A stretch of 64,000 nucleotides of DNA from NCBI GenBank assembly GCA_902529885.1, contig CABZYC010000001.1:89719-153718 (forward strand). The letters are read 5' to 3'. Position 1 is the first letter of the stretch. Every line of letters begins with the position of its first letter. The position numbers were made by a program, and so were the translations under genes. Positions 37,013-64,000 of the stretch are shown here, piece after piece. The notes below the pieces were generated by a model. That model worked only from the letters and a program-made list of their open reading frames with translations. It searched no databases and was not told the origin of the DNA. This stretch comes from an uncultured Candidatus Woesearchaeota archaeon (GTDB lineage Archaea; Nanobdellota; Nanobdellia; Woesearchaeales; GW2011-AR9).

Positions 37013-38455
37013 ATGGAACAGAAACCGCAAGAAAAAATTACTGAATCTTTTAAAGGCGAAGAACTTATTGAGGAATCGTCTAAAGCCACTCCTAAAGTGG
37101 AGGCAGCTTCTAAAAAAGCTGAAAGTACCGAAAAAAAAGCTCCGAAAAAAGCCGAAAGTACCGAAAAAAAAGCTCCGAAAAAAGCTGAAAGTACAGAGAA
37201 AAAGAGCGAACCAGTTCATGTTAAAAAAGAAATTAAATCAGAACAAAAACCTAAAGTTAGTGCAGTTAAACAAAATCAAGAAAGTTTGTTTGATAAAATG
37301 TCTACATGGCAAGCAGTTGCAGGTATCCTTGCAGCCTTACTATTACTAAGCGTTTTTACGTCAGGCTTTAGTGTTGCATCGTCTAGTACTGAAAGTATTA
37401 GTATGAATGAAGCAGAGTCATTAGCAATAAACTATGTTAACTCAAACTTATTACAAGCACCGTTCACTGCAGAATTAGAGTCTAGTAGTGATGAAGGTGA
37501 CTTATACAGGTTAACAATTACTGTTGCAGGACAATCAGTTGATAGTTATATAACTAAAGACGGACGAATCTTTTTCCCGCAAGGTTTTGACACAAGCGAA
37601 CTGATCGAAACTGTAGAAGCAGAACCGATCATGTTAAACATTGAAGGGCAACCAATGCTCGGCGATGAAAATGCGCCGGTGACAATCATTGAATTTTCTG
37701 ATTTTGAATGCCCGTTCTGTAAACGAGGTTATGATACAATGAAAGAGATCATTGCAGAATATGTTGACACAGGTAAAGCAAAATTAGTATTCATGGATTT
37801 CCCTTTAAGTTTCCATGAAAATGCTAAACCTGCCGCAATCGCAGCAGCATGTGCAGAAGAACAAGGAATGTTCTGGGAATTTCACGACCTACTTTTTGAA
37901 AATCAAGAAAGTTTAAACCGTGATACCTATCTTGCACACGCAGAAACGTTAAACTTAGACGTCGAATCATTCACAACATGTATTGATGAAGAACGTTACA
38001 GTGAAGATGTTGATGCAGACATGGCCATGGGTCAAAGTGCAGGAGTTACAGGAACACCCGCATTCATTATTAATGGCGAACTTTTCAGTGGAGCTTTACC
38101 TTACGACACTTTAGCTGGAGCTATTGAATCATACCTTGATAGTGGCGATAGTGAAATGAGTGAGAGTGAACCTGAATTTGCTGCTACTGGCGAAGAAGTC
38201 AGCATTGAAGTTTCTGCAAAGAAATGGTTGTTCACACCTAAAGAGCTTAGTGTTAACGAAGGAGACATTGTATCTTTAACAATTCAGCCCGACGGTTTAG
38301 AATTTGAATTTGCGATTCCCGAACTTGATGTAAGCGAACAAGTTTCAGGTGAAACAACAGTTACATTCACAGCAGACACTGCTGGAGAATACACGTTTGA
38401 ATGTGCAAGTTGTGAAGAGTGGCGTGGTATGACCGGTACTCTAACAGTCGAATGA
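37013..38455 (+). CDS. Membrane-anchored thiol:disulfide oxidoreductase, DsbA-like thioredoxin domain fused to a C-terminal cupredoxin-like domain, with a K/E-rich N-terminal repeat tail
   Basis: A cytoplasmic K/E-rich N-terminus has 3x (KKAESTEKKAP). A TM helix (WQAVAGILAALLLLSVF) follows. The DsbA-like domain has catalytic CPFC in EFSDFECPFCKRG and the …GTPAFIINGE… region. The C-terminal ~100 aa (WLFTPKELSVNEGDIVSLTIQPDG…EFAIPELDV…TFTADTAGEYTFECASCEEWRGMTGTLTV) resembles a cupredoxin fold with a C…C…M pattern. Confidence 0.75.
   Translation: MEQKPQEKITESFKGEELIEESSKATPKVEAASKKAESTEKKAPKKAESTEKKAPKKAESTEKKSEPVHVKKEIKSEQKPKVSAVKQNQESLFDKMSTWQAVAGILAALLLLSVFTSGFSVASSSTESISMNEAESLAINYVNSNLLQAPFTAELESSSDEGDLYRLTITVAGQSVDSYITKDGRIFFPQGFDTSELIETVEAEPIMLNIEGQPMLGDENAPVTIIEFSDFECPFCKRGYDTMKEIIAEYVDTGKAKLVFMDFPLSFHENAKPAAIAAACAEEQGMFWEFHDLLFENQESLNRDTYLAHAETLNLDVESFTTCIDEERYSEDVDADMAMGQSAGVTGTPAFIINGELFSGALPYDTLAGAIESYLDSGDSEMSESEPEFAATGEEVSIEVSAKKWLFTPKELSVNEGDIVSLTIQPDGLEFEFAIPELDVSEQVSGETTVTFTADTAGEYTFECASCEEWRGMTGTLTVE
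37112..37210. repeat. 3 x 33-nt in-frame tandem repeat (aaaaaagcYgaaagtaccgaaaaaaaagctccg) encoding KKAESTEKKAP
   Basis: Three near-identical copies are visible directly in the sequence at 37112-37210, inside the 5' part of the DsbA-fusion gene. Confidence 0.85.
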
Positions 38456-50654: not shown

Positions 50655-51074
50655 CTATGTACTACTTCTATACCAATCATAAGCCATCACCGCATACACT
50701 AAAACTATTAATTGTGATAATAAACAAAACATACACAATGCACCTATTACTGCAAATTCCACATAAGTTAGATACAAACTAAATGGTACACTAAAAAGCA
50801 TTATTACTAAAAATGCGTATAATAAGTAATGAGGGTCTACTCCTCTCAATGCAAGAATGCCTAACACTAACACTGCACTATACATTAATATCCCTGATAA
50901 GGCGTTAGGTATACCTAAAAAGGTACTATACTTACTTTTAGCAACTTCAGTACAACTAAAAACAGTGTTTACATCACATACAGCGTTTTCTGGTTCGTAA
51001 AAAACTTTCAATAAATAACCGCTACTGAGTATACCAACCACTGCCAAAATAATTATGATCCAAGGATATTTCAT
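50655..51074 (-). CDS. Vitamin K epoxide reductase (VKOR) family membrane protein
   Basis: Start MKYPWIIIILAVVG overlaps the trxB stop as ATGA. Four TM segments carry the loop Cys pair (VCDVNTVFSC) and the active-site CMFC in TM4. Confidence 0.75.
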   Translation of the reverse strand: MKYPWIIIILAVVGILSSGYLLKVFYEPENAVCDVNTVFSCTEVAKSKYSTFLGIPNALSGILMYSAVLVLGILALRGVDPHYLLYAFLVIMLFSVPFSLYLTYVEFAVIGALCMFCLLSQLIVLVYAVMAYDWYRSST

Positions 51075-51982
51075 CCTAACCACCTTTCAGCTTCAAGCGC
51101 AGCCATGCACCCAGAACCGCTAGCAGTAATAGCTTGCCGATACTTTGAATCTTGGACATCACCACAAGCAAATACTCCAGGCACATTAGTCTTCACACCG
51201 TCAGTTATTAGATAACCTACATCATCTTTATCAAGCATATCAAAAAGCCCAGTGTTTGGTTTATGCCCTATCGCAATAAAAACCCCATCACAAGCCAATT
51301 CATACTGTTTATTCGTTAACGTTTCTCGCAGTGTCATACCTGTCACTTTTTTTGTTTCAACATCATTTATCTTTTCAACAACAACATTTTCATGCACTGT
51401 GATTTTCTCATGTGCACGCGCTCTTTCAAGCATGATCACGGACGCTTTAAAATTTGATGACCTGTTCAAGATATGTACGTGAGATGCAAAACGAGTCAAA
51501 AAAAGTGCTTCTTCCATAGCAGTATCCCCGCCACCTACCACGGTCACAACTTTATCCTTGAAAAAGGCACCATCACAAGTTGCACAACTGCTTACACCGT
51601 ATCCAGTCAACGCTTTTTCTGATTCTAAGCCTAACCATCTTGCTGAAGCACCAGTACTAATTATGACGGTCTTAGCTTTAACAGTTTGATTTAATGTTTT
51701 TATAATGAAAGGCTTTTGTGAAAAATCTACTTCAGTTACATCCTCACTCAAAAAATCTGCACCAAAATGTTCTGCTTGTTTATGGATATTTTGAATTAAA
51801 TCTGAACCCATTATACCATCAACATTAACACCCGGCCAATTCTCAACCATAGTAGTTAACATTAATTGGCCACCTGTTTGATACCCTTCAATTACTAAAG
51901 GTGCTAACTGTGCCCGCGCAGTATATAACGCTGCAGTTAAGCCTGCTGGCCCACCACCAATAATTACTACTTCTCGTTCCAT
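51071..51982 (-). CDS. trxB: Thioredoxin reductase
   Basis: VVIIGGGPAGLTAALY (FAD), the redox-active CATC in SCATCDGAFF and VVGGGDTAMEEALFLT (NADPH) are present. Start at ATG MEREVV…. Confidence 0.9.
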   Translation of the reverse strand: MEREVVIIGGGPAGLTAALYTARAQLAPLVIEGYQTGGQLMLTTMVENWPGVNVDGIMGSDLIQNIHKQAEHFGADFLSEDVTEVDFSQKPFIIKTLNQTVKAKTVIISTGASARWLGLESEKALTGYGVSSCATCDGAFFKDKVVTVVGGGDTAMEEALFLTRFASHVHILNRSSNFKASVIMLERARAHEKITVHENVVVEKINDVETKKVTGMTLRETLTNKQYELACDGVFIAIGHKPNTGLFDMLDKDDVGYLITDGVKTNVPGVFACGDVQDSKYRQAITASGSGCMAALEAERWLG

Positions 51983-54542: not shown

Positions 54543-55004
54543 ATGGGGACTATACACAAAGATGTACCACTTTCAGAATGTACACTTCGACGGTACGAAA
54601 AACCAATTAATACTGACAGAGACCTTGTTAGAAGATTATGTTTAACCCTAGGAATATTACAACCAGGGGATAGTCGTGACGTTATTGTTGATGTATTACA
54701 CGTACTACTTACTGCTCGTTCACAAAAAAAAATTATGGACACTGATCTAATACGCGACCTTGTTATTGCAAATAGGGCAGATTATGAACTTGAAATGAAC
54801 GGTATTGCTCATAGTAACATACGAAGACAATTAAGACGATTAAAGGAATTATATCTTATTGAATGTATTAATAACGAATATAGGATCTCTGAATTTATGA
54901 GTTGTGAAGAAGTACTTAACGAAAAGATTATGCCTTTTTTAATTAAACCAATTTTGCAACGTGTAAAAGAATATTTGAAAGCTGTTGACCAGCAATTCAA
55001 ATAA
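54543..55004 (+). CDS. Hypothetical cytoplasmic protein
   Basis: A 153-aa helical protein, MGTIHKDVPLSECTLRRYEKP…. The track's GTG start at 54519 overlaps the gltX end. No family recognised. Confidence 0.4.
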   Translation: MGTIHKDVPLSECTLRRYEKPINTDRDLVRRLCLTLGILQPGDSRDVIVDVLHVLLTARSQKKIMDTDLIRDLVIANRADYELEMNGIAHSNIRRQLRRLKELYLIECINNEYRISEFMSCEEVLNEKIMPFLIKPILQRVKEYLKAVDQQFK

Positions 55005-55257
55005 TATCTTCTTCACTCACCACAATAAAATCACCTAATGCAATTACTGCACTAAAAGGGATAAGGATTTGACTCTCTTTATTCTTTTCAAGCTCCATCT
55101 TTTCAGTATAGATTGTTGGGTTACGTAATACTAAATTAATTAGTTCTCCGCTACCCACCTCGAAAATTAAATCGCCAATTTCACCAAATTTTTTACCGGA
55201 CTTACTTACCACTGTTTTACCAATGATGTCTCGAGAATAATTTTTTTCTGATTCCAT
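54997..55257 (-). CDS. PRC-barrel domain protein
   Basis: An 86-aa protein; IIGKTVVSKSGKKFGEIGDLIFEVGSGELINLVL matches the PRC-barrel consensus. Confidence 0.55.
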   Translation of the reverse strand: MESEKNYSRDIIGKTVVSKSGKKFGEIGDLIFEVGSGELINLVLRNPTIYTEKMELEKNKESQILIPFSAVIALGDFIVVSEEDII

Positions 55258-55277: not shown

Positions 55278-55535
55278 ATGTGTCACAACGTATTTAAAGA
55301 TTACGGTGTCTGCGACAGTATGCAAACAGAAATGCAAGGACAAGAAAAAGTTGGATACCATAAAGGTGCACTCAGTGTTTTAACTAAAGAACGCGAAGAA
55401 ATGATGAGAATTCTACAAATTGTTGAGTCATTAATGCAAATGCATGTTAAAGAACTTAAAGAATTAGGCATAGATTTAACTGGGAAAAAAAGTACTGACA
55501 AAAAAAATAAAAAAAATATAGATGAAATTCTATAA
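55278..55535 (+). CDS. Small hypothetical protein
   Basis: An 85-aa charged helical protein with no recognisable family. It convergently overlaps the next gene. Confidence 0.3.
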   Translation: MCHNVFKDYGVCDSMQTEMQGQEKVGYHKGALSVLTKEREEMMRILQIVESLMQMHVKELKELGIDLTGKKSTDKKNKKNIDEIL

Positions 55536-56882
55536 TTTATACATTACAATTGTATAAGCAGAGATCGGGATAGCTGCAAGAAGCATCCCGCAAGCTGCTG
55601 CTAGAACATAAATGTATAATGATTCAAAAAAACCTTTATCAATATCATCAGTTGATGCTACAACAACACTTTCTTCAGAAGAATCTGTCTCTTCACCTTC
55701 TTCAGAAGAAACTTCAACTTCAATATACTCATATTCCGTCTCATATTCAGTTACAGTAGTTGTTGTGACAGATTCACATACATTATCAGACATGAATTCT
55801 ACCATATCTTCTTGTAAATCTGCAACATCATCTTCTAAATCGTAACCATTAACATCATCACGTAGTTCGCTTACGTCTTGGTATAATTCATAAACTTCAT
55901 TTTGTGCTTCATCACAATCAATGTTACCGTCTTCGTAATCTTCAACAATATCGTCAAAGTCATCTTCTAGATCATCCAAATCGTCTTCTTCATCAGATAA
56001 ATCAACTTCATCAGAATCACTATCATCGGAAGTGCTATCGTCAGAATCACCATCATCGGAAGTGCTATCGTCAGAATCACCATCATCGGAAGTGCTATCA
56101 TCAGAAGTGCTATCGTCAGAATCACTATCATCAGAAGTGCTATCATCGGAAGCGCTATCATCAATACCATTTGATTGTACAACAACTACCAATTCTGTTA
56201 CATTACCACATTCAACGTTAAGAGTATATTCTCCAACTTCATCTTCTGTTGGTGTCCATTCGATAAGAATATCATGACCACTATATGTATAAACTTCTTC
56301 TGGCAAATCTGTTTGAGCAAGAACCATTGTTTCAGTACATGAAACCATTTCCACATGATAAGTATCTTCAACAAATGTTAAAGCACCATATGTTAAGATT
56401 GGATCAACTACAATAACTTCTACCTCTGGTACATCAATATCTATTAACAAATCTTCACTTAAAGTGATGGTAGGGATATCAATTATTAATTCACCTGGAT
56501 CGTATGTGCCAATACCAACAAATGTTAAACCTGTCTCTTCATAACTAGACCTAGATTCTCTTACTTGAACCGTGTTAGTCCCAGCTTCAATTGTTATAGT
56601 TACTGTCTCTGTACAAACAGACTTACAAACTATAGTTTTAGTTTCACTTGCATACTGTACATAATAAATTCCTGATTCACTCATTTCAACTGTTAAATCA
56701 ACTGTATCGCCTATCGCGCTATAATAAGTTCCATCAGTATCACCATCATACATAACCTGTATGTCTTCCTCAGCTACAACTATTACTACACTTTCAATTG
56801 CAACCGGATCTAATGATAAAACGGGTGCTGGCGCAGCAAAAACTAGCGGAATCAGTAATAATATCAATATGAGTTTTCTCAT
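55530..56882 (-). CDS. Acidic cell-surface protein with Ig-like domain, SDDSTSDD repeat linker and C-terminal TM anchor
   Basis: A signal peptide (MRKLILILLLIPLVFAAPAP) is followed by a beta-rich domain with HDILIEWTPTEDEVGEYTLNVECGN (He_PIG-like 'WTP…VG.Y' motif). Next come (SDDSTSDDGD)n and a DDLDDLEDDFDD acidic block, a C-terminal hydrophobic anchor (LYIYVLAAACGMLLAAIPISAYTIV) and a YKL tail. Confidence 0.7.
   Translation of the reverse strand: MRKLILILLLIPLVFAAPAPVLSLDPVAIESVVIVVAEEDIQVMYDGDTDGTYYSAIGDTVDLTVEMSESGIYYVQYASETKTIVCKSVCTETVTITIEAGTNTVQVRESRSSYEETGLTFVGIGTYDPGELIIDIPTITLSEDLLIDIDVPEVEVIVVDPILTYGALTFVEDTYHVEMVSCTETMVLAQTDLPEEVYTYSGHDILIEWTPTEDEVGEYTLNVECGNVTELVVVVQSNGIDDSASDDSTSDDSDSDDSTSDDSTSDDGDSDDSTSDDGDSDDSTSDDSDSDEVDLSDEEDDLDDLEDDFDDIVEDYEDGNIDCDEAQNEVYELYQDVSELRDDVNGYDLEDDVADLQEDMVEFMSDNVCESVTTTTVTEYETEYEYIEVEVSSEEGEETDSSEESVVVASTDDIDKGFFESLYIYVLAAACGMLLAAIPISAYTIVMYKL
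56011..56160. repeat. About 5 x 30-nt in-frame tandem repeat (tcagaatcacYatcatcggaagtgctatcg; alternating 15-mers) encoding (SDDSTSDDGD)n
   Basis: Three perfect 30-mers at 56011-56100 are followed by 15-nt half-unit variants to about 56160. Confidence 0.85.
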
Positions 56883-56951
56883 TTATCTCTAAAAGATAAT
56901 GTGATTTAAAAGTGTTGTTACTAAAAAGTGGTTAAAAAAATAAAATAAAGA

Positions 56952-59213
56952 TTAATTGCGTTTTTTACCTGCAAACAATAAGGTAATCATGAAAAGCATC
57001 ATTGCTAAAATAATCACGATTGCTGCAGACATATAAACGATAACACGAAAGTCACCGAAATTCTGTTCTGTGCTTGTAGCGCTACTCGTGGTAGTGCTAG
57101 TAGCTGGGACAGTGGTTACAGTAACTGTACTTTCAGTACTACTTGTATCATCATCATCATCATCATCAGACGACGTACTAGATGTGTATGTTGTAGCAGA
57201 TGTACTGTCAGATGAAGACGTATAAGTGCTAGATGAACTAGAACATGATGCACCATCATCAATGACATCACTAATATCACTTCGAAGGTCAGCAATATCA
57301 TCTTCTAGATCTTCCAAATCATCGATTAGATCGTCAGCAACATCTTCGTCAATGTCACTATCATCATCGATATCATCCTGTAAATCATCCAATACATCGT
57401 CTAAATCGCCCAAATCATCGTCAAGATCGTCAAGATCGTCAATAATATCGTCTAATTCATCATCGTCGCCATCATCTTCAGCGTCACAATAATCGTCCTT
57501 TAAATCCTCTAGATCATCTTGGTAATCATCTAATGAATCTTCGATATCTTCAATATTGTCATCGTATTCAGTGGAAACTTCATCAATCTCAATATCGAAA
57601 CGAATTGTTACTGCATTTCCGTTTTCATCTTCAAATACAATACGTACTTCGTGGGTACCAACATCGTCAGATTCTGGTTCCCAAACTAAAGTGTAACCAG
57701 TACTTGATTCATCTAAGAAATCATCTAATGCATCATCAAGGTCAACGTCTAAAGTACTATCACAACCAGAATCGTCACAATCAACGTCCCAAGTAGTAAC
57801 AGTAATTTCACTATCTTCAGGATCATAAACAACAATCTCAATTTCTAAATCGTCGCCCACTTCAGCTTCAATATCATCAATCTCTTCTACGATTGGATCA
57901 TCATCAACGTCAGTCACTGTAATGACTACTTCGGATGATTCTGTTTCATATGAACCATCACTAACAATGATTGTGAAGGTGTGTACACCAACATCTAGCG
58001 CGCCAGGAGTCCAATCCATACCATTCTCGTCGAAGGTTGCACTTGATAAAGTACTTTCACCAACAGTGTAATCAGCATCGAAAGATTCGTCAACACTGTA
58101 TGATAACGTGTCGCCATCTCCATCTGAAACACTATAGGAGATAGTAATACTTTCATCTTGTTCAATGGTTGTTTCCACAATGTCAACATCTTCATCAAAA
58201 GCAGGTGAAAAGTTTTCTGAAACAGTTACATCAAACGTTGTTGAATCAGTTAATCCAGCTTCGTCAGTAACAGTAACAGTAACAGTTTCAGTTGTGCCAA
58301 CGTCTGCTTCAGCAGGAGTAAAAGTCCAAGTATCATCGTCAACACTATTTGTTCCAGTAAATGCGTGAGATACAGAATAAGATAAAGTTGTTTCTTCACC
58401 GTTATCAATATCTTCATCAGTAGCATTAAACACAACTTCTAAAGTAGCATAGTCGCCAGCAGCAGGGTTCGCAAACACTTCTTGGTCATCAACAGCGTCA
58501 ATAACAGGGTCATCGTTCTCATTAGTAACTGTAATTGATAATACGTCAGATGATTCTTCACCAGCACTATCAGTAGCAGTAATATTCACTTCGTAACTAC
58601 CAACGTCCGCATTCACAGGAGTCCAATCTAATTCACCAGTACCATCACCGTTATCAGTGAATGTTACTTCAGATACAGGTTCAATATCAAACTCGTATGA
58701 TAAAACGATAGTATCAGGTTCAGTTAATAATAAGTCATCATCAGCCGTTGTTATAGTGATTGTAGTCATAGCTGCATCTTCAGCTACACTTTCAGTCACT
58801 GAACTTAAAATAATACTTGGTGCATCGTTTACGTTTGATACAGTAATATTTAATGACCCAGTAGTGTTATCAAGAATACCGTCACCATCATCATCAACAC
58901 CATCACTAAAAGTTATATTAATAGTGTGTTCCCCAACATCGTCATTAGTTGGAGTCCATGTTAAATCTACAGTTCCATCAAAATTGTCAGTAAAATCGCC
59001 AGCAATCAAAGTTTGAGCTAGACAGTCTCCGCACGAAATTGAATCTATTACAACAGAGTATACAGGAGTACCGGTATCACTGCTAAATTCAATCGTACTC
59101 GTTAATTCTGAATCCTCATCAATTGACAAGTCTTCAAAGGTATCTAATGTAATGTTACCTGCAAATACAACAGGTAAAAGCATTAATACCATTAATAATT
59201 GTACATATTTCAT
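56952..59213 (-). CDS. Large acidic surface protein with about 5 Ig-like (He_PIG/cadherin-like) domains, poly-Asp/Leu block, Ser/Thr-rich stalk and C-terminal TM anchor
   Basis: Start at ATG MKYVQLLMVLMLLPVVFAG (the signal peptide); the track's GTG is 3 codons upstream. A recurrent motif [DN]G(T)..(L/W)[DT]WTP…DVG.H…[IV]… appears five times (TVDLTWTPTNDDVGEHTINITFSDG, GELDWTPVNADVGSYEVNITATDS, DDTWTFTPAEADVGTTETVTVTVTD, NGMDWTPGALDVGVHTFTIIVSDGS, GYTLVWEPESDDVGTHEVRIVFEDENG). An ~90-aa run (…DDLEDLKDDYCDAEDDGDDDELDDIIDDLDDLDDDLGDLDDVLDDLQDDIDDDSD…) and an S/T stalk precede the TM (VIVYMSAAIVIILAMMLFMITLLFAG) and KKRN tail. Confidence 0.75.
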   Translation of the reverse strand: MKYVQLLMVLMLLPVVFAGNITLDTFEDLSIDEDSELTSTIEFSSDTGTPVYSVVIDSISCGDCLAQTLIAGDFTDNFDGTVDLTWTPTNDDVGEHTINITFSDGVDDDGDGILDNTTGSLNITVSNVNDAPSIILSSVTESVAEDAAMTTITITTADDDLLLTEPDTIVLSYEFDIEPVSEVTFTDNGDGTGELDWTPVNADVGSYEVNITATDSAGEESSDVLSITVTNENDDPVIDAVDDQEVFANPAAGDYATLEVVFNATDEDIDNGEETTLSYSVSHAFTGTNSVDDDTWTFTPAEADVGTTETVTVTVTDEAGLTDSTTFDVTVSENFSPAFDEDVDIVETTIEQDESITISYSVSDGDGDTLSYSVDESFDADYTVGESTLSSATFDENGMDWTPGALDVGVHTFTIIVSDGSYETESSEVVITVTDVDDDPIVEEIDDIEAEVGDDLEIEIVVYDPEDSEITVTTWDVDCDDSGCDSTLDVDLDDALDDFLDESSTGYTLVWEPESDDVGTHEVRIVFEDENGNAVTIRFDIEIDEVSTEYDDNIEDIEDSLDDYQDDLEDLKDDYCDAEDDGDDDELDDIIDDLDDLDDDLGDLDDVLDDLQDDIDDDSDIDEDVADDLIDDLEDLEDDIADLRSDISDVIDDGASCSSSSSTYTSSSDSTSATTYTSSTSSDDDDDDDTSSTESTVTVTTVPATSTTTSSATSTEQNFGDFRVIVYMSAAIVIILAMMLFMITLLFAGKKRN

Positions 59214-59287
59214 AGTAGTCACCTATGCTTATCTTCAAAGTGAACGTACTTTATAAACATTCATATCGTAAAACTACTATCCAGTGA

Positions 59288-59740
59288 TTACAATATTACC
59301 TCGCCACGAAACGCCTTTGGAACATAGTTTAAAAAGGTACCATCAATGGCTTTAGCTACAGCAACTGGCTCATTTTGGTATGTTAATGTATAGAACGCTC
59401 GCCCTTCATTTTTACAAGGTATATTCTGACCACGGAGGTACATCTCAGTTAAGGTTTTAGTTAATTCATACTGGTTCTTGGCTGGGCCTTGCATGTGCCA
59501 GAATAATTTTAAGCCACAAAAACTTAGCCTGAATTCAGTATCGTTCATTTCGCCAAGGTACAATCCTACGCGGTCCAGTTTAAACTGTAATAAATCGTCC
59601 ATACCAACAGACACCATAAACAGCTTATGCTTACTATTAACAAAATAACTGTAACCAGAAGGTAGCGTATAACCATAAACTGTTTGTAAAAATTCTTTCA
59701 CACGCTTTTTATCAGCTTTACGTAAACGGTCTAACTTCAT
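59288..59740 (-). CDS. Hypothetical cytoplasmic protein (no signal peptide), embedded in the surface-protein locus
   Basis: A 150-aa protein, MKLDRLRKADKKRVKEFLQTVYGYTLPSGYSYF…. It may be a PUA-like or other small RNA-binding fold, but no family is recognised with confidence. Confidence 0.45.
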   Translation of the reverse strand: MKLDRLRKADKKRVKEFLQTVYGYTLPSGYSYFVNSKHKLFMVSVGMDDLLQFKLDRVGLYLGEMNDTEFRLSFCGLKLFWHMQGPAKNQYELTKTLTEMYLRGQNIPCKNEGRAFYTLTYQNEPVAVAKAIDGTFLNYVPKAFRGEVIL

Positions 59741-59771
59741 GAATTAACTTGTTCCAAGCGTAGTTAAAAAA

Positions 59772-59945
59772 CTATCCGTTACGAATATAGATGTAACCAC
59801 CGTACACAAAAAATAATGTGCCGAACAGTAAAGGCCAACTTAAAATTGTAAAAAAAGTGTTTAAAATCATTACTATACCCAAAAAAAAGAGTTCTATACC
59901 CCAAGACCGTGCATTTTGTTTTGTAAAGATAATTTGTGGCTTCAT
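59772..59945 (-). CDS. Possible small 2-TM membrane protein (57 aa)
   Basis: My own reverse-strand translation gives MKPQIIFTKQNARSWGIELFFLGIVMILNTFFTILSWPLLFGTLFFVYGGYIYIRNG, which is hydrophobic. It lies in an otherwise unexplained 257-nt gap and is below the ORF-track length cutoff. Confidence 0.3.
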   Translation of the reverse strand: MKPQIIFTKQNARSWGIELFFLGIVMILNTFFTILSWPLLFGTLFFVYGGYIYIRNG

Positions 59946-59997
59946 GCCAAAGATAAGAGTGTTATGATATATAAAATTAAAGAAAAAAAAAATGTAC

Positions 59998-61251
59998 TTA
60001 ATAGTACGTTTGTTCTTCGTCGTCGTCTTTTTGAAGACGGAAGTATGCTACAACTAGTAACACTAAGATGAATAGTACAACAAGCACTACTAAAGCAACC
60101 TCTAAAGCGTTAGCTAAACTGAAATCATCAGCACCTTCGGTTACAACAGCATTCAAAGTGAATGTTTCTAACACGTTTCCGTCGTTCATTAAGTACAAGT
60201 TAACTGCATGTGAACCTACAACAGCGTCACTGCTAACAGTAACAGTAGCTTCGACAACTTGTGATTGACCAGGAGCCAATACAACTAAACTGTCTGACAT
60301 GCTTACACTTGCCCAGTCACCAACACTAACTTCGAATGAGTAAGTTTCTGAGGTTGAACCATCATTGCTCATTGCAATAGTGTATACAACACTTTGACCT
60401 GCAGCAACGTTCTGACTTTCAGGACCTACAGCTACAACTAAACTTTCGTCGTTAGCAGTACAGTAACCACCGTCAACAACAGTTAATGAGTAAGACTCAC
60501 GTACAGTTTCATAGTAATCGTATGTTACAATTACATCTACACTGTATACGCCTTCAGCTGCACAGTCAGGAATGCTCAAGAACATTTCTTCTGAGGTTTC
60601 ATAACTTACACTTTCTTGGTTTGCGTTAGTTTCTAAGATCTCAATGTAATCAGTTGCACTCACACCCAATTCTGGGATGCTTACACTTATTTTTACATCT
60701 TCTTCATCGTTGTCACCGTAGTTTTGTAAAACAACAGTTGTTAACAAACTTCGACCAGACTGTACTTCATCACCAGGTGAGAAGAATACGTCAGTGATTT
60801 CAACACCGTGACGTGAAGGTTCAATGTATAATCGAACAATCTGTTCCATTGTATCACTGTTTTTATCAGTTACACGGATTCGTAAATAGTACTCATCTTT
60901 GTCTAACTGTACAGGTAATTCAATGTCTAATGAAACTGTCTTAAATGTGTCTTCAGTTAAATCGAACAAGTGACTTGTAGCCATTAATGGTTCATAGTCA
61001 GCATATTCATACCCGCTAATTTCTGCGGTAACTTGAATATCTTCAACATCGTCTAGAGCTTCTAAACCTACTTCAATTTCTAGCGTTGCACCTTCTTCGA
61101 TAGCAATACGCTCTCCGTCCTCACCAACTTCCAATTCCTGGTCGTTGATTTCAAAATTTCGCCATTCTAAATCGCTTGTATCAGCAAATGCAGGGCTAAC
61201 TAGCACAGCAAATAAAGCCAATACAGCGATGATATTAATTATTCCTTTCAT
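59998..61251 (-). CDS. Acidic surface protein with tandem beta-sandwich modules and C-terminal TM anchor
   Basis: A signal peptide (MKGIINIIAVLALFAVLVSPAFA) is followed by an E/D-rich beta-rich body with ~100-aa periodicity. The C-terminus has a TM (LEVALVVLVVLFILVLLVVAYF) and an acidic tail QKDDDEEQTYY. Confidence 0.65.
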   Translation of the reverse strand: MKGIINIIAVLALFAVLVSPAFADTSDLEWRNFEINDQELEVGEDGERIAIEEGATLEIEVGLEALDDVEDIQVTAEISGYEYADYEPLMATSHLFDLTEDTFKTVSLDIELPVQLDKDEYYLRIRVTDKNSDTMEQIVRLYIEPSRHGVEITDVFFSPGDEVQSGRSLLTTVVLQNYGDNDEEDVKISVSIPELGVSATDYIEILETNANQESVSYETSEEMFLSIPDCAAEGVYSVDVIVTYDYYETVRESYSLTVVDGGYCTANDESLVVAVGPESQNVAAGQSVVYTIAMSNDGSTSETYSFEVSVGDWASVSMSDSLVVLAPGQSQVVEATVTVSSDAVVGSHAVNLYLMNDGNVLETFTLNAVVTEGADDFSLANALEVALVVLVVLFILVLLVVAYFRLQKDDDEEQTYY

Positions 61252-61377
61252 TTTTAGATGTATTCCTTATGGTGTTAAGCGATATACTACTCCAAAGCCG
61301 ATATTCTTTATAAAACCTATCGTCCTTTTTGAGTAGTTACACTTCATTTTTCAATTAGGGAAGAGGGGTTAACCCTC

Positions 61378-64000
61378 TTAGATCACCCTCAATACACGGT
61401 GAGTAGTATGCATGTAATCGTCATTGCTAGCAACAACTCGAACATCATACAATTTATTCCGCGCATAACTTGGCACATATACCTGAATTTGTTGTGATAA
61501 TTGTTCACCGGATTCGATGGTGACACTATCACTAACATAGATTACGCCAAGCTCAGGGATTGAAACAGAAATCTGGAAATTTTCCAAATCTTGTTCCCCG
61601 TCGTTCGTCATACCAACTGTAAGTACATTGTACTCCCCAGCTCGCACGTCCTGGTCGTCAAACTGTACATTACTATATTTCACGTTCCGTACAGGTTCAC
61701 GAACATGGATTGTAAAGGTTTGATAAACCGTATACAATTCATCTGATACACTCAGAACTACTTCATAGTCACCAATCATTTGTGGTGTCCATGATAATAA
61801 TAATTCATCATCATCAAACGTCATGCCGTCAGGACCTTCTTCCAAGTCAACGTCAAGTTCCGTAGCTTCGTGGTCATCCACGATAATCTGGTACGTATAC
61901 TCTTCATAACGAATAGCAGTCGTATCAGGTTCACTTTGGAACTCAGGTTCACTGTTCACATCGTAAACAGTGATGGTCACTGTTGTTTCTACAGTAGATT
62001 CTGCATCGTCAACAGTAATGTCAACTTCGTACGCACGACCTTCCTCAGAACCTGCATAATAATCAGGCGTCCAAGTTAAGGTGTACTCTTCCCCATCAAC
62101 AGTAAGTGTTGCATCATCTAAATCAGATAAATCAACACTAACTGAGACAGTTTCCCCGTCAGGATCGTCCACTGAAAATGTATATTCCAGGGTTTCACCT
62201 TCATTCGTGGATACATCTGTTGCATCAACAGTTGGGTCACGGTTCACATTAGACACAGTGATAGTTACTGTACCTTCAACATCGTGAACATCGTCAGTAA
62301 CTGTTAATTCAATTACAATGTCACCTGCATCTTCGTACCCTAACTCATAGGATACAGTAGCAGTTCCGTCACCATTATCGGTAACGTTTGCACCATCAGT
62401 ACTAGTTGCAAAAACTAAATCGTCACCATCAGCGTCAGTAGCCCCAATAGTAAACTCAATTGTTTCACCTTCACTCGCAGTTTGGTCTTCTAATACAGAC
62501 CATTCAGGAGCAACATTATCGTCAACAATAATTTCACAAGTATCATTCACTGTGTCAAAACCGTCATCAACAGTAACGCTGAATGTGTGCGTACCTTCCT
62601 GGTCATAATCAGGTGTCCACGATAAAGTGTCACCATCAATTGTTAGACCACTTGGTTCACCAACCAATGTGATAGTATGCGTATCTTCAGTATCAAGATC
62701 TGTAATCTCAATTGTACCTTCGTATGCTTCACCTTCGTCAGCGTCAGGGTTAGGACACACAAAAACAGCTTCTTGGTTAACATCTGTCACAGTAACTTCA
62801 AAGTCTGTACTGATTGATTCAGCGCCAACAGTAGCTTCTGTCGCAATAACTTCTACAGTGAACGTGTCTTCAGTCAACATATGTTGTACTAAACTGTAAT
62901 CAGGTTCGATAGTGATTGTTACAGTATCAGTAGTTGAACTTGTATCAATGTTAATCATGTTCGCAACAACATCTTGACCGTTATCAGTCATAGCATCAAC
63001 GTTTACAGTGAAGACCATGTCATCACCGTTCAAATCGTTCACTTCAATGTCATATACTAATTCGTCACCCTCAGTTACTTCTTGGTCAGCAATGCTTGTT
63101 ACCCACCCAGGAGAATCACATGCATCGCCAGCACCGTCAACGTCAGTATCAGCTTGATCAGCATTTTCTACGTCAGGACAGTTATCAATGCTGTCAGGTA
63201 CACCGTCAGCGTCTTCATCAATGTTCACAGTGAACACGATAACTTCAGAATCATCACCGCTATCATCTGTTAAAGTTGCAGTTAAACTATACGTTCCAGC
63301 AACACCAGTAACATAGTCACTATCAGTAACAGTTACTTCTCCACTACACTCGTAGAATGAACCATATATATTATCACAAGTGTCAGCCGGTACAACAGTA
63401 GTACTCAACATATTATCTGCCACACCCATGCTACCTTCTTGTAAAGCAACTTCTAGATCAAATTCAGATGCAGAAGTTACAATGGTATACTCAGCAGTAA
63501 CATTGTCACCATCAGTAATTAGCATCTCGGATGACCCATCATCAAATGTGAAGTTCAATGTGCTTTCTGTACTGTCACTTGGTGTAGCATCTGTATCTTC
63601 AACTAAGAAGATCCAGTCTGCATAGGTTAATGCACCTTCAGTATCTTCAACTTCTACACTAATTGTATAGTATAAGCCGCTGTCATCTGCATCATAATCA
63701 CCAGGAGACAATTCTTCACTTGTACCAACAAAGTTTAATGTTAAGAAGCCGTCAGCCGTAGCAGCACGTGACACAGTTACCCAAGATGGTTTACTTACAA
63801 CATCGTATGATAAGACGTCACCGTTTGGATCGTATGCAGTCAATGTGCCACTATAAGCATCACCTTCAGTCATGACACCATAACCAGGTGTACTCACTAC
63901 TACTGGTGCATCATTATCTTCGCTTAATGCAACAACAGTCAAGTTAACACTACTCGTGTCTTCACCATTGTTAAAATCAGAAACGATTGTATAATCCCCG
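61378..64000 (-). CDS. Giant acidic surface protein, C-terminal >870 aa only, with Ig-like (He_PIG) domains and a thrombospondin type-3 Ca-binding repeat. The gene continues beyond the window end.
   Basis: The reverse frame stays open to position 64000; the ORF track's 'M' at 63942 is a TTG inside the continuing frame. It contains DEDADGVPDSIDNCPDVENADQADTDVDGAGDACD (a canonical TSP type-3 repeat). WTP motifs recur (DTLSWTPDYDQEGTHTFSVTVDDG, YTLTWTPDYYAGSEEGRAYEVDITVDD, LLLSWTPQMIGDYEVVLSVSDE). The last ~110 aa (…YSNVQFDDQDVRAGEYNVLTVGMTNDGEQDLENFQISVSIPELG…) are a beta-sandwich module related to the 59998 protein (shared SVSIPELG). No C-terminal TM. Confidence 0.75.
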   Translation of the reverse strand, partial: GDYTIVSDFNNGEDTSSVNLTVVALSEDNDAPVVVSTPGYGVMTEGDAYSGTLTAYDPNGDVLSYDVVSKPSWVTVSRAATADGFLTLNFVGTSEELSPGDYDADDSGLYYTISVEVEDTEGALTYADWIFLVEDTDATPSDSTESTLNFTFDDGSSEMLITDGDNVTAEYTIVTSASEFDLEVALQEGSMGVADNMLSTTVVPADTCDNIYGSFYECSGEVTVTDSDYVTGVAGTYSLTATLTDDSGDDSEVIVFTVNIDEDADGVPDSIDNCPDVENADQADTDVDGAGDACDSPGWVTSIADQEVTEGDELVYDIEVNDLNGDDMVFTVNVDAMTDNGQDVVANMINIDTSSTTDTVTITIEPDYSLVQHMLTEDTFTVEVIATEATVGAESISTDFEVTVTDVNQEAVFVCPNPDADEGEAYEGTIEITDLDTEDTHTITLVGEPSGLTIDGDTLSWTPDYDQEGTHTFSVTVDDGFDTVNDTCEIIVDDNVAPEWSVLEDQTASEGETIEFTIGATDADGDDLVFATSTDGANVTDNGDGTATVSYELGYEDAGDIVIELTVTDDVHDVEGTVTITVSNVNRDPTVDATDVSTNEGETLEYTFSVDDPDGETVSVSVDLSDLDDATLTVDGEEYTLTWTPDYYAGSEEGRAYEVDITVDDAESTVETTVTITVYDVNSEPEFQSEPDTTAIRYEEYTYQIIVDDHEATELDVDLEEGPDGMTFDDDELLLSWTPQMIGDYEVVLSVSDELYTVYQTFTIHVREPVRNVKYSNVQFDDQDVRAGEYNVLTVGMTNDGEQDLENFQISVSIPELGVIYVSDSVTIESGEQLSQQIQVYVPSYARNKLYDVRVVASNDDYMHTTHRVLRVI

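What the first reader, a model, noticed from the sequence alone, without database searches (positions are those of the whole stretch)
55530..64000. Locus of four tandem, extremely acidic Ig-like/TSP3 surface proteins
Seen: four consecutive minus-strand genes (55530-56882, 56952-59213, 59998-61251, 61378->64000) each start with a signal peptide. Three of them end in a single C-terminal hydrophobic anchor; the fourth (61378->64000) ends in a beta-sandwich module without one. Their bodies are highly D/E-rich. Two of them carry repeated [D/N]G…WTP…DVG.H motifs, which are He_PIG/cadherin-like Ig domains, seen 5 times in one protein and at least 3 times in another. One contains a perfect thrombospondin type-3 repeat (DADGVPDSIDNCPDVENADQADTDVDGAGDACD). 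Two share a membrane-proximal periodic poly-Asp/Leu block (DDLDDLDDDLGDLDDVLDDL… and DDLDDLEDDFDD). Established: TSP3 and cadherin-like modules bind Ca2+ and mediate cell–cell or cell–matrix adhesion. Inference: this is a paralogous adhesin or surface-coat family, plausibly mediating Ca-dependent attachment to a partner cell. The DDL-periodic block next to the membrane is not a motif I recognise from described families.
Basis: partly seen in the sequence, partly recalled or inferred. Interest (0 to 1): 0.7.

Follow-up and report, generated by a model that had tools for sequence, protein, structure and literature searches.

The report
Woesearchaeal acidic cell-surface protein locus
This stretch encodes the outer-surface proteins of a tiny DPANN (Woesearchaeota-type) archaeon: a conserved pair of wall or coat proteins, plus cadherin-like proteins mounted on a previously undescribed, very acidic three-helix stalk that many relatives share.

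Summary
The genes are real and exported, and most of the described motifs are present. The framing as "four consecutive paralogous adhesins" is not right.

- **Layout.** Five minus-strand genes lie here. A cytoplasmic PUA-domain gene (59288-59740) splits the exported ones into two unrelated modules.
- **Module A.** P5 (61378->64000, about 980 aa in full, no anchor) and P4 (59998-61251) are adjacent in every Woesearchaeota genome where the upstream gene could be read. P4 is as conserved as GluRS (50% identity each), with a nearly invariant membrane helix and ...EEQTYY tail. This fits a core envelope component, possibly an anchor plus canopy, better than an adhesin.
- **Module B.** P2 (56952-59213) has five He_PIG/cadherin-like domains on a C-terminal module: an acidic three-helix bundle, a disordered Ser/Thr linker, a membrane helix and a basic tail. 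A profile of this module finds 124 protein clusters (E<=1e-10). The matches generally run to the protein's C-terminus, and the 20 sampled carry varied ectodomains. Every named member is from Woesearchaeota. No Pfam or NCBIfam model covers it. P1 resembles a truncated P2 but fails the family profile.
- **Acidity.** It combines an intrinsically acidic stalk with an acid shift of all exported proteins in a non-acidic proteome, probably an adaptation to saline or marine habitats.
- **TSP3.** The motif is genuine but occurs once.
- **Function.** It remains inferred.

The parts
55530..56882 (-). P1, 450 aa. It has a signal peptide, an N-terminal domain of unknown type, one He_PIG-like domain (WTPTEDEVGEY), an (SDDST)n acidic linker, two acidic amphipathic helices flanked by Cys323 and Cys369, and a C-terminal membrane helix. 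It looks like a lineage-specific, truncated relative of P2.
   Evidence: ORF and translation. Hydrophobic ends and the WTP motif. No Pfam hit. The C-terminal part aligns to the P2 C-terminus with z = 6.7 against shuffles, but it fails the family HMM (score -0.1, bias 60). An orthologue is present in L008.
56008..56163 (-). DNA tandem repeat inside P1 (period 15/30, 5-10 copies) that encodes the SDDST/SDDSD/SDDGD linker. It is a likely length-variable spacer.
   Evidence: Tandem Repeats Finder and the translation.
56952..59213 (-). P2, 753 aa. It is a type-I membrane protein made of a signal peptide, five He_PIG/Big_9 Ig-like domains of about 103 aa each, and the stalk-linker-anchor module.
   Evidence: He_PIG scores 41.1 bits (cutoff 24) and Big_9 scores 42.3 bits (cutoff 23.6). 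Five WxP..DxG motifs. Cadherin-like linkers at residues 127, 231, 333 and 435. Full-length homologues at 32-99% identity.
57255..57569 (-). Acidic three-helix stalk of P2 (residues 549-653). In the stretch measured (residues 545-653, 109 aa), D+E is 56% and there are only two K/R. L, I and V occupy heptad a/d positions. Cys576 and Cys657 flank the bundle.
   Evidence: The AlphaFold2 model gives three helices (P2 residues 549-581, 584-617 and 623-653) with pLDDT 85-95. Foldseek finds antiparallel three-helix bundles with TM-scores up to 0.75 but no significant E-value. Periodicity and composition. Family consensus.
57063..57254 (-). Disordered Ser/Thr/Asp-rich linker of P2 (residues 654-717). 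It contains the conserved TVTVTT strand-like motif.
   Evidence: pLDDT is below 50. Alignment of family members.
56955..57062 (-). Juxtamembrane F-G-D-F-R motif, membrane helix and basic tail (GKKRN) of P2.
   Evidence: Hydropathy. The helix is predicted. The W/F-x3-R motif occurs in 67 of 130 family members.
59288..59740 (-). PUA-domain protein, 150 aa, pI 9.4, with no signal peptide. It is a cytoplasmic gene that interrupts the row of surface genes, and it is conserved at this position in relatives.
   Evidence: Methyltranf_PUA scores 34.7 bits (cutoff 27.6). pI. Positional orthologues in L005, L008 and L011.
59998..61251 (-). P4, 417 aa. It has a signal peptide, three beta-sandwich domains (about residues 27-144, 149-259 and 270-371), a membrane helix (379-403) and the cytoplasmic tail RLQKDDDEEQTYY. 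It is a core Woesearchaeota envelope protein.
   Evidence: NPCBM_assoc scores 39.4 bits (cutoff 24.4). More than 180 full-length homologues at 41-60% identity. The membrane helix and tail are nearly invariant. AlphaFold2 mean pLDDT is 84.9. Only generic Ig/E-set fold matches. Identity to the L005 orthologue is 50%, the same as for GluRS.
61378..64000 (-). P5, C-terminal 873 of about 980 aa. It is a secreted, unanchored protein with He_PIG/Big_9 Ig-like domains, one TSP3 loop and a C-terminal CARDB-like beta-sandwich. The start codon and signal peptide lie about 320 nt beyond the window.
   Evidence: Translation. He_PIG scores 67.1 bits and Big_9 scores 34.1 bits. Full-length homologue P0121 (98% identity, 980 aa) has a signal peptide. 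A P5-like gene lies upstream of P4 in L005, L007, L008, L009, L010 and L011.
63115..63219 (-). Single thrombospondin type-3 Ca-binding repeat in P5 (DEDADGVPDSIDNCPDVENADQADTDVDGAGDACD).
   Evidence: Coordinates. phmmer hits COMP 3fby at E = 5.7e-17 and TSP-1/-2. Many bacterial TSP_3 proteins match at 55-85% identity over this stretch. The Pfam TSP_3 score of 17.2 is below the cutoff of 25.
61381..61686 (-). C-terminal beta-sandwich of P5. It is similar to domain 2 of P4 (both contain SVSIPELGV) and is conserved in all P5-like orthologues, which makes it a candidate docking domain.
   Evidence: blastp of P4 against P5 gives 31% identity over 118 aa, E = 5e-7. Alignment of P5-like C-termini from six genomes with P4 domain 2. 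NPCBM_assoc scores 20.8 bits, below the cutoff.

Best explanation
The region is part of the cell-envelope gene neighbourhood of a Woesearchaeota-type (DPANN) archaeon, probably from saline or marine water. It holds two unrelated modules separated by a cytoplasmic PUA-domain gene.

**Module A: P5 then P4.**
- P4 is a membrane-anchored pedestal of three beta-sandwich domains. Its membrane helix and cytoplasmic ...EEQTYY tail are almost invariant.
- P5 is a 980-aa secreted protein with no anchor. It has an orthologous N-terminal domain, a variable middle of He_PIG Ig domains with one TSP3 Ca loop, and a C-terminal beta-sandwich paralogous to domain 2 of P4.
- I infer that P5 is held on the cell by docking onto P4. 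This is an anchor-plus-canopy arrangement with the same logic as SlaB/SlaA, and it may be the wall or coat of these cells.

**Module B: P2, and more loosely P1.**
- P2 presents five cadherin-like He_PIG domains with Ca-type linkers on a conserved C-terminal module: a ~105-residue acidic antiparallel three-helix bundle, a ~60-residue disordered Ser/Thr/Asp linker, a membrane helix and a basic tail.
- Woesearchaeota reuse this module to mount many different ectodomains (He_PIG, PKD, CARDB, TSP3).
- I infer that it acts as a spacer. It holds the binding domains away from the membrane, possibly through the coat, and its charge keeps it extended and loaded with cations.

**Acidity.** Two causes combine. 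The stalk family is intrinsically acidic. In addition, all exported proteins in this lineage are acid-shifted while the cytoplasmic proteome is not.

**Shown versus inferred.**
- Shown: gene structures, domain assignments, the families, the synteny and the predicted folds.
- Inferred: docking of P5 on P4, the spacer and cation role of the stalk, and adhesion to a partner cell.
For: - **Organism.** GluRS is 49-51% identical to Woesearchaeota MAGs. Named homologues of P4 and of the stalk module are all Woesearchaeota, Nanoarchaeota or unclassified 'archaeon'.
- **Proteome charge.** Cytoplasmic proteins have pI 4.9-10.4 and exported proteins pI <= 4.65. The net charge of the P4 ectodomain ranges from -0.03 to -0.235 per residue across the family. 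The window's value is -0.17, and the most acidic members include TARA ocean sequences. Published work reports a marine-versus-freshwater pI shift that is strongest in secreted proteins (PMC6706942), and halophilic Woesearchaeota without an acidic whole proteome (PMC11606122).
- **Module A.** The P5-like and P4 genes are adjacent in L005, L007, L008, L009, L010 and L011. P4 is 50% identical between the window and L005, the same as GluRS. Its membrane helix and tail are nearly invariant. P5-like proteins share N- and C-terminal domains with a variable middle, and the C-terminal domain aligns with P4 domain 2. The P4 model has three beta-sandwiches and a membrane helix at pLDDT 84.9.
- **Analogy.** In the cultivated DPANN Nanobdella, a ~1000-aa Ig protein without a membrane helix and an Ig protein with one were proposed as SlaA-like and SlaB-like (bioRxiv 10.1101/2023.10.27.564410).
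- **Module B.** Domain scores and linkers. Three helices are predicted at pLDDT 85-95 with a disordered linker, and the fold matches three-helix bundles. A profile search finds 238 clusters at E <= 1e-3 and 124 at E <= 1e-10, and in most of the 150 best matches listed the match runs to within a few residues of the protein's C-terminus. Of the 150 proteins examined (144 of those listed plus 6 close homologues), 130 have a C-terminal membrane helix. The family consensus has specific conserved residues, not only composition. Across the family the stalk has a median D+E of 40% and K+R of 13%. Ectodomains vary. A second member lies on the same 1.08-Mb contig as L010.
Against: - There is no expression, localisation or lattice evidence for any of these proteins.
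- P4 lacks the coiled coil of SlaB and has no N-glycosylation sequons. It has no sequence match to any solved structure and only generic fold matches, with no archaeal S-layer protein among the structures listed.
- Slow evolution of P4 is unusual for S-layer proteins, so P4 may serve another conserved membrane function.
- Docking of P5 on P4 rests only on gene adjacency and a shared domain type.
- The three helices were modelled as a monomer from only seven sequences, so an intermolecular coiled coil is not excluded.
- P1 fails the stalk family profile.
- The habitat is inferred from composition and from relatives, not from sample metadata (one search found nothing).
Confidence: 0.6

Rival explanations
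1. All four proteins form one paralogous family of Ca-dependent adhesins or coat proteins, and their main job is to attach this small archaeon to a partner cell.
For: - He_PIG and Big_9 domains score above cutoff in P2 and P5.
- P2 has cadherin-type linkers.
- The TSP3 loop matches COMP and thrombospondins.
- TSP3 motifs occur in 53 of 130 stalk-family members.
- All DPANN archaea cultivated to date are ectosymbionts that need direct contact with a host cell (abstract of bioRxiv 10.1101/2023.02.24.529834, listed).
Against: - The proteins share only local similarity.
- P4 has no adhesin-type domain and is as conserved as GluRS.
- A cytoplasmic gene interrupts the row.
- The block is ancestral synteny rather than a local expansion.
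- Adhesion itself remains possible for P2 and P5.
Confidence: 0.25
2. The C-terminal end of P2 and its family is a sorting signal rather than a permanent anchor. A motif, a membrane helix and a basic tail would be recognised by an unknown archaeosortase-like enzyme. That enzyme would cut off the helix and attach a lipid, as happens for PGF-CTERM proteins.
For: - The end is tripartite: a W/F-x3-R motif, a hydrophobic helix and a basic tail, preceded by a Ser/Thr-rich linker.
- This architecture is what defines sortase and archaeosortase substrates (PMC6098224).
- The family has several members per genome.
Against: - No NCBIfam sorting-domain model was listed for P2 at E <= 0.1 or for the 10 relatives at E <= 0.01.
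- Archaeosortases are reported only in a subset of Euryarchaeota (PMC6098224).
- My regular expression finds the motif in only about half of the members.
- No polytopic membrane protein of archaeosortase type is present in the window, although the window covers only a small part of the genome.
Confidence: 0.15
3. The strongly negative coat is mainly a cation-handling device. It would concentrate or sieve cations (Ca2+, Mg2+, NH4+) at the cell surface, and the Ig domains would be structural only.
For: - Net charges are -65 to -202 per protein.
- The stalk is acidic even in less acidic relatives, with a median of 40% D+E.
- S-layer proteins of ammonia-oxidising archaea have been implicated in concentrating ammonium ions (abstract of PMC12153357, listed).
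Against: - The acid shift affects every exported protein in the window, including enzymes such as a GH3 domain protein and a DsbA-like protein. That points to a general habitat adaptation.
- No transport or channel feature was found.
Confidence: 0.12
4. The acidic, repetitive proteins are low-complexity artefacts of biased sequence, or they are the acidic proteome of a salt-in halophile.
For: Composition is very biased, and P1 contains a DNA tandem repeat.
Against: - Conserved full-length homologues exist for every gene.
- Pfam domains score above their cutoffs.
- The structure predictions are confident.
- Motif counts are far above shuffles.
- Cytoplasmic proteins in the same window have pI up to 10.4.
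Confidence: 0.02

Closest known systems
SlaA/SlaB two-component S-layer of Sulfolobales, and the SlaA-like/SlaB-like candidates proposed for the DPANN archaeon Nanobdella aerobiophila (MJ1_0160, MJ1_0707)
   Same: Both have a large Ig-rich exported protein without an anchor encoded next to, or together with, a smaller Ig-rich protein that has a single C-terminal membrane helix. The sizes are comparable: about 1000 aa without a membrane helix.
   Different: No sequence similarity to any solved structure was found. P4 has no coiled coil. P4 is unusually conserved and has an invariant cytoplasmic tail. Lattice formation and abundance are unknown.
Bacterial and archaeal He_PIG / Big_9 / cadherin-like repeat adhesins ('putative Ig domain-containing' and tandem-95 repeat proteins)
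   Same: The Ig-like domains are of the same type, score above the Pfam cutoffs, and carry DxNDxP-like inter-domain linkers.
   Different: The arrays are short (five domains), are extremely acidic, and sit on a lineage-specific stalk-anchor module rather than on RTX, LPXTG, PGF or MYXO-CTERM ends.
Thrombospondin type-3 repeats (COMP and TSP-1/-2; bacterial TSP_3 proteins such as the MYXO-CTERM cohesion protein MtsC)
   Same: The Ca-binding consensus is complete, including both cysteines, and the stretch aligns to solved COMP and TSP repeats.
   Different: It is a single repeat inserted in an Ig array, not a tandem 'wire', and its Pfam score is below the cutoff.
PGF-CTERM / archaeosortase substrates such as the Haloferax S-layer glycoprotein
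   Same: Both have a Ser/Thr-rich linker followed by a short motif, a hydrophobic helix and a basic tail at the extreme C-terminus.
   Different: The motif is different (W/F-x3-R, not PGF). No NCBIfam sorting model was listed for the proteins tested. A folded acidic three-helix bundle precedes the linker. No archaeosortase is known in this lineage.
Generic antiparallel three-helix bundles (spectrin repeat, BAG domain, mite allergens Der f 21 / Der p 5)
   Same: The predicted fold and length are the same, about 100 residues, with TM-scores up to 0.75.
   Different: There is no significant sequence or structure E-value. The composition is unique: in the stretch measured (P2 residues 545-653) 56% of residues are D or E and only two are K or R, and L, I and V sit at heptad a/d positions. 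The position in the protein is also fixed, immediately before a membrane anchor.

Membership tests
He_PIG (PF05345) / Big_9 (PF17963) Ig-like domains | The profile score reaches the Pfam gathering cutoff. | tested here: met
   P2 scores 41.1 bits for He_PIG (cutoff 24) and 42.3 bits for Big_9 (cutoff 23.6). P5 scores 67.1 and 34.1 bits. P1 and P4 have no hit.
Cadherin-like domains (PF17803, PF17892) | The profile score reaches the Pfam gathering cutoff. | tested here: not met
   Cadherin_5 scores 20.5 bits in P2 (cutoff 26.5) and Cadherin_4 scores 20.5 bits in P5 (cutoff 25.1).
Cadherin-like domains (PF17803, PF17892) | A DxNDxxP-type Ca-binding linker lies between successive domains. | tested here: met
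   P2 has NVNDAP, NENDDP and DVDDDP (three of four linkers). P5 has EDNDAP, DDNVAP, NVNRDP and DVNSEP. Ca binding itself was not tested.
Thrombospondin type-3 repeat (PF02412) | The profile score reaches the Pfam gathering cutoff. | tested here: not met
   The score is 17.2 bits against a cutoff of 25, and only profile positions 15-36 are matched.
Thrombospondin type-3 repeat (PF02412) | The full consensus DxDxDGxxDxxDNCPxxxNxxQxDxDxDGxGDxCD is present and the stretch is similar to solved repeats. | tested here: met
   Every consensus position is present at P5 window residues 261-295. phmmer hits COMP 3fby at E = 5.7e-17, TSP-2 at 3.6e-13 and TSP-1 at 4.4e-8.
Thrombospondin type-3 repeat (PF02412) | The repeats occur as a tandem array. 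| tested here: not met
   There is one copy only in P5, and none in P1, P2 or P4.
NPCBM_assoc / CARDB-type beta-sandwich | The profile score reaches the Pfam gathering cutoff. | tested here: met
   P4 scores 39.4 bits (cutoff 24.4). The P5 C-terminus scores 20.8 bits, below the cutoff, but blastp against P4 gives E = 5e-7.
SlaA/SlaB-type two-component S-layer | Adjacent genes encode a large unanchored subunit and a smaller subunit with a C-terminal membrane helix. | tested here: met
   P5 has no membrane helix and is about 980 aa. It lies directly upstream of P4, which is 417 aa with a membrane helix. The adjacency is conserved in six loci.
SlaA/SlaB-type two-component S-layer | Sequence or specific fold similarity to known S-layer subunits, and a coiled-coil stalk in the anchor subunit. 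| tested here: not met
   The P4 profile finds no solved structure by sequence. Fold matches are generic Ig/E-set folds. The P4 model has no helix apart from the signal peptide and the membrane helix.
SlaA/SlaB-type two-component S-layer | The proteins form a 2-D lattice and are among the most abundant in the cell. | not testable with these tools
   This needs cryo-ET and proteomics or transcriptomics. The supplementary expression tables of PMC11606122 are not held.
Archaeosortase/exosortase substrates (PGF-, PEF-, PIP-CTERM and similar) | The protein matches a curated C-terminal sorting-domain model. | tested here: not met
   No such NCBIfam model was listed for P1, P2 or P4 at E <= 0.1, or for 10 stalk-family relatives at E <= 0.01.
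Archaeosortase/exosortase substrates (PGF-, PEF-, PIP-CTERM and similar) | The C-terminus is tripartite: a motif, a hydrophobic helix and a basic cluster. | tested here: met
   P2 ends FGDFR, then a membrane helix, then GKKRN. The W/F-x3-R motif occurs in 67 of 130 family members.
Archaeosortase/exosortase substrates (PGF-, PEF-, PIP-CTERM and similar) | A cognate archaeosortase gene is present in the genome. | tested here: inconclusive
   There is no candidate polytopic protein in the 64-kb window. The rest of the genome is not available.
Woesearchaeota stalk-linker-anchor module (defined here; not in Pfam or NCBIfam) | The protein matches the profile built from P2 homologues, at its extreme C-terminus. 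| tested here: met
   P2 scores 195 bits over profile positions 1-225. The profile finds 124 clusters at E <= 1e-10. P1 does not match (score -0.1, bias 60).
Salt-in halophile acidic proteome | Cytoplasmic proteins are also strongly acidic. | tested here: not met
   Cytoplasmic ORFs in the window have pI 4.9-10.4, and many are above 8.5.

The most novel reading that the evidence does not exclude
P4 and P5 are the long-sought wall of Woesearchaeota: a conserved membrane pedestal carrying a variable canopy. The acidic three-helix module is a new, lineage-specific domain whose folding or docking depends on cations. It plugs a whole repertoire of interchangeable adhesin ectodomains (He_PIG, PKD, CARDB, TSP3) into or through that wall. 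Alternatively, it marks them for a still unknown C-terminal sorting enzyme.
Probability: 0.25. Interest if true: 0.65.

Novelty: new variant of a known kind. Interest (0 to 1): 0.45.

Why it matters
No S-layer or anchoring protein has been determined experimentally for any DPANN archaeon (bioRxiv 10.1101/2023.10.27.564410), and I know of no cultivated Woesearchaeota. This analysis provides three things that can be used directly.

- **A candidate core envelope pair.** P5 and P4 can be recognised in Woesearchaeota genomes by position and by the invariant ...EEQTYY tail. The pair can be looked for in metaproteomes and tomograms.
- **A profile for an undescribed C-terminal stalk-anchor domain.** It flags the surface-protein repertoire of these organisms, at least 124 clusters, and so gives a shortlist of likely host-contact proteins.
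- **A clear example of a split proteome.** Exported proteins are acid-shifted while the cytoplasm is not, which is useful for inferring habitat and osmotic strategy from sequence.

None of this overturns current views. It refines them and makes them testable.

Tried and rejected
- **Exact look-up of the window's P4** found no record. I therefore used near-identical homologues (P0121, P0241, and loci L007 and L008).
- **Literature search for sample and run identifiers** (SAMN10231896, SUTE22, PRJEB17505, ERR2281800) found nothing, so the habitat is inferred only.
- **Bacterial-type promoter and terminator scans** were at background level and do not apply to archaea.
- **Foldseek with the stalk model** gave only generic three-helix bundles with E > 0.4.
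- **Weak Pfam and NCBIfam hits on the stalk** (EzrA, SMC, Rad50, ASRP, V-SNARE, DUF2207_C) are all far below their cutoffs. I treated them as coiled-coil noise.
- **The idea that P1 is a clear member of the stalk family** was dropped after the profile test failed.
- **A salt-in halophile such as a nanohaloarchaeon** was considered first and rejected because the cytoplasmic proteins are neutral or basic.
- **Pfam scans of the unknown genes upstream of P5** in relatives gave nothing.
- **Supplementary expression tables of PMC11606122** are not held.

Full report
**1. What is in the sequence**

Between 55530 and 64000 the minus strand carries five long ORFs, not four:
- P1, 55530-56882, 450 aa.
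- P2, 56952-59213, 753 aa.
- A 150-aa gene, 59288-59740.
- P4, 59998-61251, 417 aa.
- P5, 61378 to beyond 64000; 873 residues lie in the window.

The 150-aa gene is basic (pI 9.4), has no hydrophobic segment, and matches the RNA-binding PUA domain of RsmF (34.7 bits, cutoff 27.6). The exported genes are therefore not consecutive.

P1, P2 and P4 each have an N-terminal signal-peptide-like segment and one C-terminal hydrophobic helix. The N-terminus of P5 lies outside the window. A 98%-identical full-length homologue (P0121) is 980 aa long and starts MKVNLMKLMAFALVVVLLSPAAFA. P5 is therefore exported, and only about 107 residues are missing.

The composition matches the description. D+E is 19-28% and K+R is 1-4%, and net charges are -65 (P4), -113 (P1), -188 (P5, window part) and -202 (P2).

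**2. Which organism, and whether the acidity is special to this locus**

The window also encodes archaeal housekeeping proteins. Its GluRS is 49-51% identical to that of a Woesearchaeota MAG and of three MAGs labelled 'uncultured Methanosarcinales'. Homologues of P4 and of the P2 stalk that carry names are Woesearchaeota, Nanoarchaeota or unclassified 'archaeon'.

GC content is about 37%.

Cytoplasmic proteins in the window have pI 4.9-10.4. Every protein with an export signal has pI <= 4.65. That group includes a 2982-aa NosD/beta-helix protein, a GH3-domain protein and a DsbA-cupredoxin fusion. This is not a salt-in halophile, and the acidity is a property of the whole exported proteome.

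Across the P4 family the ectodomain net charge runs from -0.03 to -0.235 per residue. The window's P4 is at -0.17. The most acidic members are its closest relatives and include TARA ocean sequences.

This fits two published observations:
- The pI shift between marine and freshwater relatives is strongest in secreted proteins (PMC6706942).
- Halophilic Woesearchaeota show a bimodal pI distribution with no salt-in signature (PMC11606122).

The actual sample of origin could not be established.

**3. Domain content**

He_PIG and Big_9 score above the Pfam cutoffs in P2 (41.1 and 42.3 bits) and in P5 (67.1 and 34.1 bits). The cadherin-like models stay below their cutoffs.

P2 has five W-x-P...D-x-G motifs, against 0.002 expected in shuffles. 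It has four inter-domain linkers about 103 residues apart. Three of them (NVNDAP, NENDDP, DVDDDP) resemble the cadherin DxNDxAP Ca-binding linker (the cadherin consensus is from my own knowledge).

P5 has three WTP motifs in the window and similar linkers.

The 35-residue TSP3 stretch matches every consensus position. It hits COMP (3fby, E = 5.7e-17), TSP-2 and TSP-1 and dozens of bacterial TSP_3 proteins. It occurs once, and its Pfam score (17.2) is below the cutoff (25).

P4 matches NPCBM_assoc (39.4 bits). P1 matches nothing.

The four proteins share only local similarity:
- P1 and P2: 47 residues.
- P4 and P5: 118 residues, 31% identity, E = 5e-7.

**4. The P5-P4 pair**

P4 has more than 180 homologues. 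They are 41-60% identical over their full length and are all about 415-440 aa long.

The juxtamembrane segment, the membrane helix and the cytoplasmic tail (...SLRNGLEIALIVLVVLLVIIGLIIGFSRLRKDDEEEEQTYY) are almost invariant.

Compared with the genome behind L005, P4 is 50% identical, the same as GluRS (50%). P2 is 35% identical and P5 is 40%.

In every related locus where the upstream gene could be read, a P5-like gene sits directly upstream of P4. Where its full length is known (L007-L011) it encodes a 980-1190-aa exported protein without an anchor. This holds for L005, L007, L008, L009, L010 (groundwater) and L011. It is also implied by consecutive locus tags in another genome.

The P5-like proteins share an N-terminal domain and a C-terminal beta-sandwich (...YD[VI]R..VSNDD[FY].H..[HY]R.LRV). 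Their middles differ: He_PIG, PKD, Cys-rich repeats, and TSP_3 in L010. The C-terminal domain aligns with domain 2 of P4; both contain SVSIPELGV.

The wider order is also conserved: amino-acid permease, unknown secreted proteins, P5, P4, PUA, P2-like, PRC barrel, GluRS.

I read P5 and P4 as a core envelope pair, with P4 as pedestal and P5 as outer component docking through its C-terminal domain. This is the logic of SlaB/SlaA. It is also the logic proposed for the cultivated DPANN Nanobdella, where a 1000-aa Ig protein without a membrane helix and an Ig protein with one were suggested as assembly and anchoring subunits. It remains an inference, for four reasons:
- P4 has no coiled coil.
- P4 has no N-glycosylation sequons.
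- P4 has no specific structural relative.
- Its slow evolution is unusual for wall proteins.

**5. The Asp/Leu block**

In P2 the block is part of a 109-residue segment (residues 545-653) with 56% D+E and only two K/R. L, I and V are spaced 3-4-3-4. The 3.5-residue periodicity of residues 549-653 exceeds all 2000 shuffles.

AlphaFold2 on the last 225 residues with six homologues gives:
- three helices (P2 residues 549-581, 584-617, 623-653) at pLDDT 85-95, joined by loops of 2 and 5 residues;
- 64 disordered residues;
- a membrane helix.

The model superposes on antiparallel three-helix bundles (Der f 21, BAG, spectrin, designed bundles; TM-score up to 0.75). No match has a significant E-value.

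The module is conserved in all full-length P2 homologues. Some of them, and P1, keep a pair of cysteines at the two ends of the bundle that should lie close together. A DsbA-like protein is encoded in the window.

A profile of the module was searched against 1.84 billion representative proteins:
- It finds 238 clusters at E <= 1e-3 and 124 at E <= 1e-10, and in most of the 150 best matches listed the match runs to within a few residues of the protein's C-terminus.
- Of the 150 proteins examined (144 of those listed plus 6 close homologues), 130 have a C-terminal membrane helix.
- The consensus has specific conserved residues, not only composition..YEDDYxxYKxKYExAxxDDDExDIxKYExKLxDLDDDLKDLxDDVEDLIDDVED...LLDDLEDLEDDIxxLRDxIDxLL..., then a linker, then V.V, W...R and the membrane helix.
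- The helical part has a median D+E of 40% and K+R of 13%. The domain is therefore intrinsically acidic, and the window's P2 is its acidic extreme.
- Ectodomains differ (He_PIG, PKD, CARDB, TSP_3), and 53 of 130 members carry TSP3 motifs.
- All named members are Woesearchaeota.
- No Pfam or NCBIfam model reaches its cutoff on the module.

P1 has the same layout: one Ig domain, an acidic Ser/Asp repeat, two acidic helices with flanking cysteines, and a membrane helix. Its C-terminus aligns with that of P2 better than shuffles do (z = 6.7). It nevertheless fails the family profile, so its membership is unproven.

**6. How it probably works**

- **Shown:** P2 is a type-I membrane protein with five Ig-like domains, a folded acidic helical domain, a long flexible linker and an anchor.
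- **Inferred:** the stalk and linker act as a spacer that lifts the binding array off the membrane, possibly through the P4/P5 layer. The negative charge keeps the stalk extended and cation-loaded. The Ig arrays and the TSP3 loop bind Ca2+ and mediate contact with other cells or surfaces.
- **A serious rival for the very C-terminus:** it may be a tripartite sorting signal for an unknown archaeosortase-like enzyme. The points against are that no curated sorting model was listed for the proteins tested and that the window holds no candidate enzyme.

**7. Verdict**

The interpretation as one paralogous adhesin family is only partly right.

The locus is an ancestral envelope gene block of Woesearchaeota, and it contains two items worth following up:
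- a conserved P5-P4 pair that is a candidate wall;
- an undescribed acidic three-helix stalk-anchor domain shared by many surface proteins of the lineage.

This is a new variant of a known kind, namely archaeal Ig-rich surface proteins with C-terminal anchors, and it is of moderate interest.

Noticed in passing
window 2858-11806 (-): A giant 2982-aa exported protein with NosD and right-handed beta-helix repeats (306.8 and 163.8 bits). It has 48 cysteines, pI 4.15 and a hydrophobic segment near the C-terminus. It is another large surface protein of this organism.
   Followed up: partly
L001 1-9700 (GCA_964343575.1, 665-kb contig): In a related genome, a provirus-like block (portal, large terminase, ParB, D12 methyltransferase) lies directly upstream of the P2 orthologue. 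It may be an integrated virus of a Woesearchaeota-type archaeon.
   Followed up: no
L007 2281-3453, L008 51-1208, L009 2914-4266 (upstream of P5, outside the window): Conserved secreted proteins of 385-450 aa lie just upstream of P5-like genes. Their C-terminal halves look like bacterial outer-membrane beta-barrels, with alternating hydrophobic residues and endings ...GLQLDF or ...NVTYRFG. This is odd for a single-membrane archaeon. No Pfam match was found.
   Followed up: partly
window 60001-60117 (P4 membrane helix and tail): The cytoplasmic tail RL(R/Q)KDD..EEQTYY-COOH is nearly invariant in more than 100 homologues (QTYY in 86 of 120). This suggests a conserved intracellular or membrane partner.
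   Followed up: partly
window 54997-55257 (-): An 86-aa PRC-barrel protein is 80-83% identical between distant genomes, and a PRC-barrel gene lies near the P2-like gene or GluRS in L001, L004, L005, L006 and L011.
   Followed up: no
window 32696-36961 (+): A CARDB-like exported protein with a C-terminal membrane helix (396 aa, pI 4.05) heads an operon that looks like a MacB-type ABC transporter (two ~400-aa multi-helix membrane proteins and a 222-aa protein; these three were not scanned against any family library). The arrangement is kept in L004 and L006.
   Followed up: no
window 37013-38455 (+): A fusion of an acidic N-terminal region, a DsbA/thioredoxin domain and a cupredoxin-like domain. 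It is conserved in L003, L004 and L006. Together with a four-helix 142-aa membrane protein at 50655-51083, it may form the extracytoplasmic disulfide system.
   Followed up: no
window 55278-55535 (+): An 85-aa ORF with a lysine-rich C-terminus lies between the PRC-barrel gene and P1, and its stop overlaps the end of P1. A similar small basic ORF occupies the same position in L005 (14533-14829). No Pfam match was found.
   Followed up: no
window 56008-56163: A DNA tandem repeat (period 15/30) encodes the (SDDST)n spacer of P1, so the spacer length could vary between strains.
   Followed up: no
L004, L005, L006 record titles: Three MAGs whose GluRS and local gene order match Woesearchaeota are labelled 'uncultured Methanosarcinales archaeon' in the public records. 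This is probably a mislabel.
   Followed up: no
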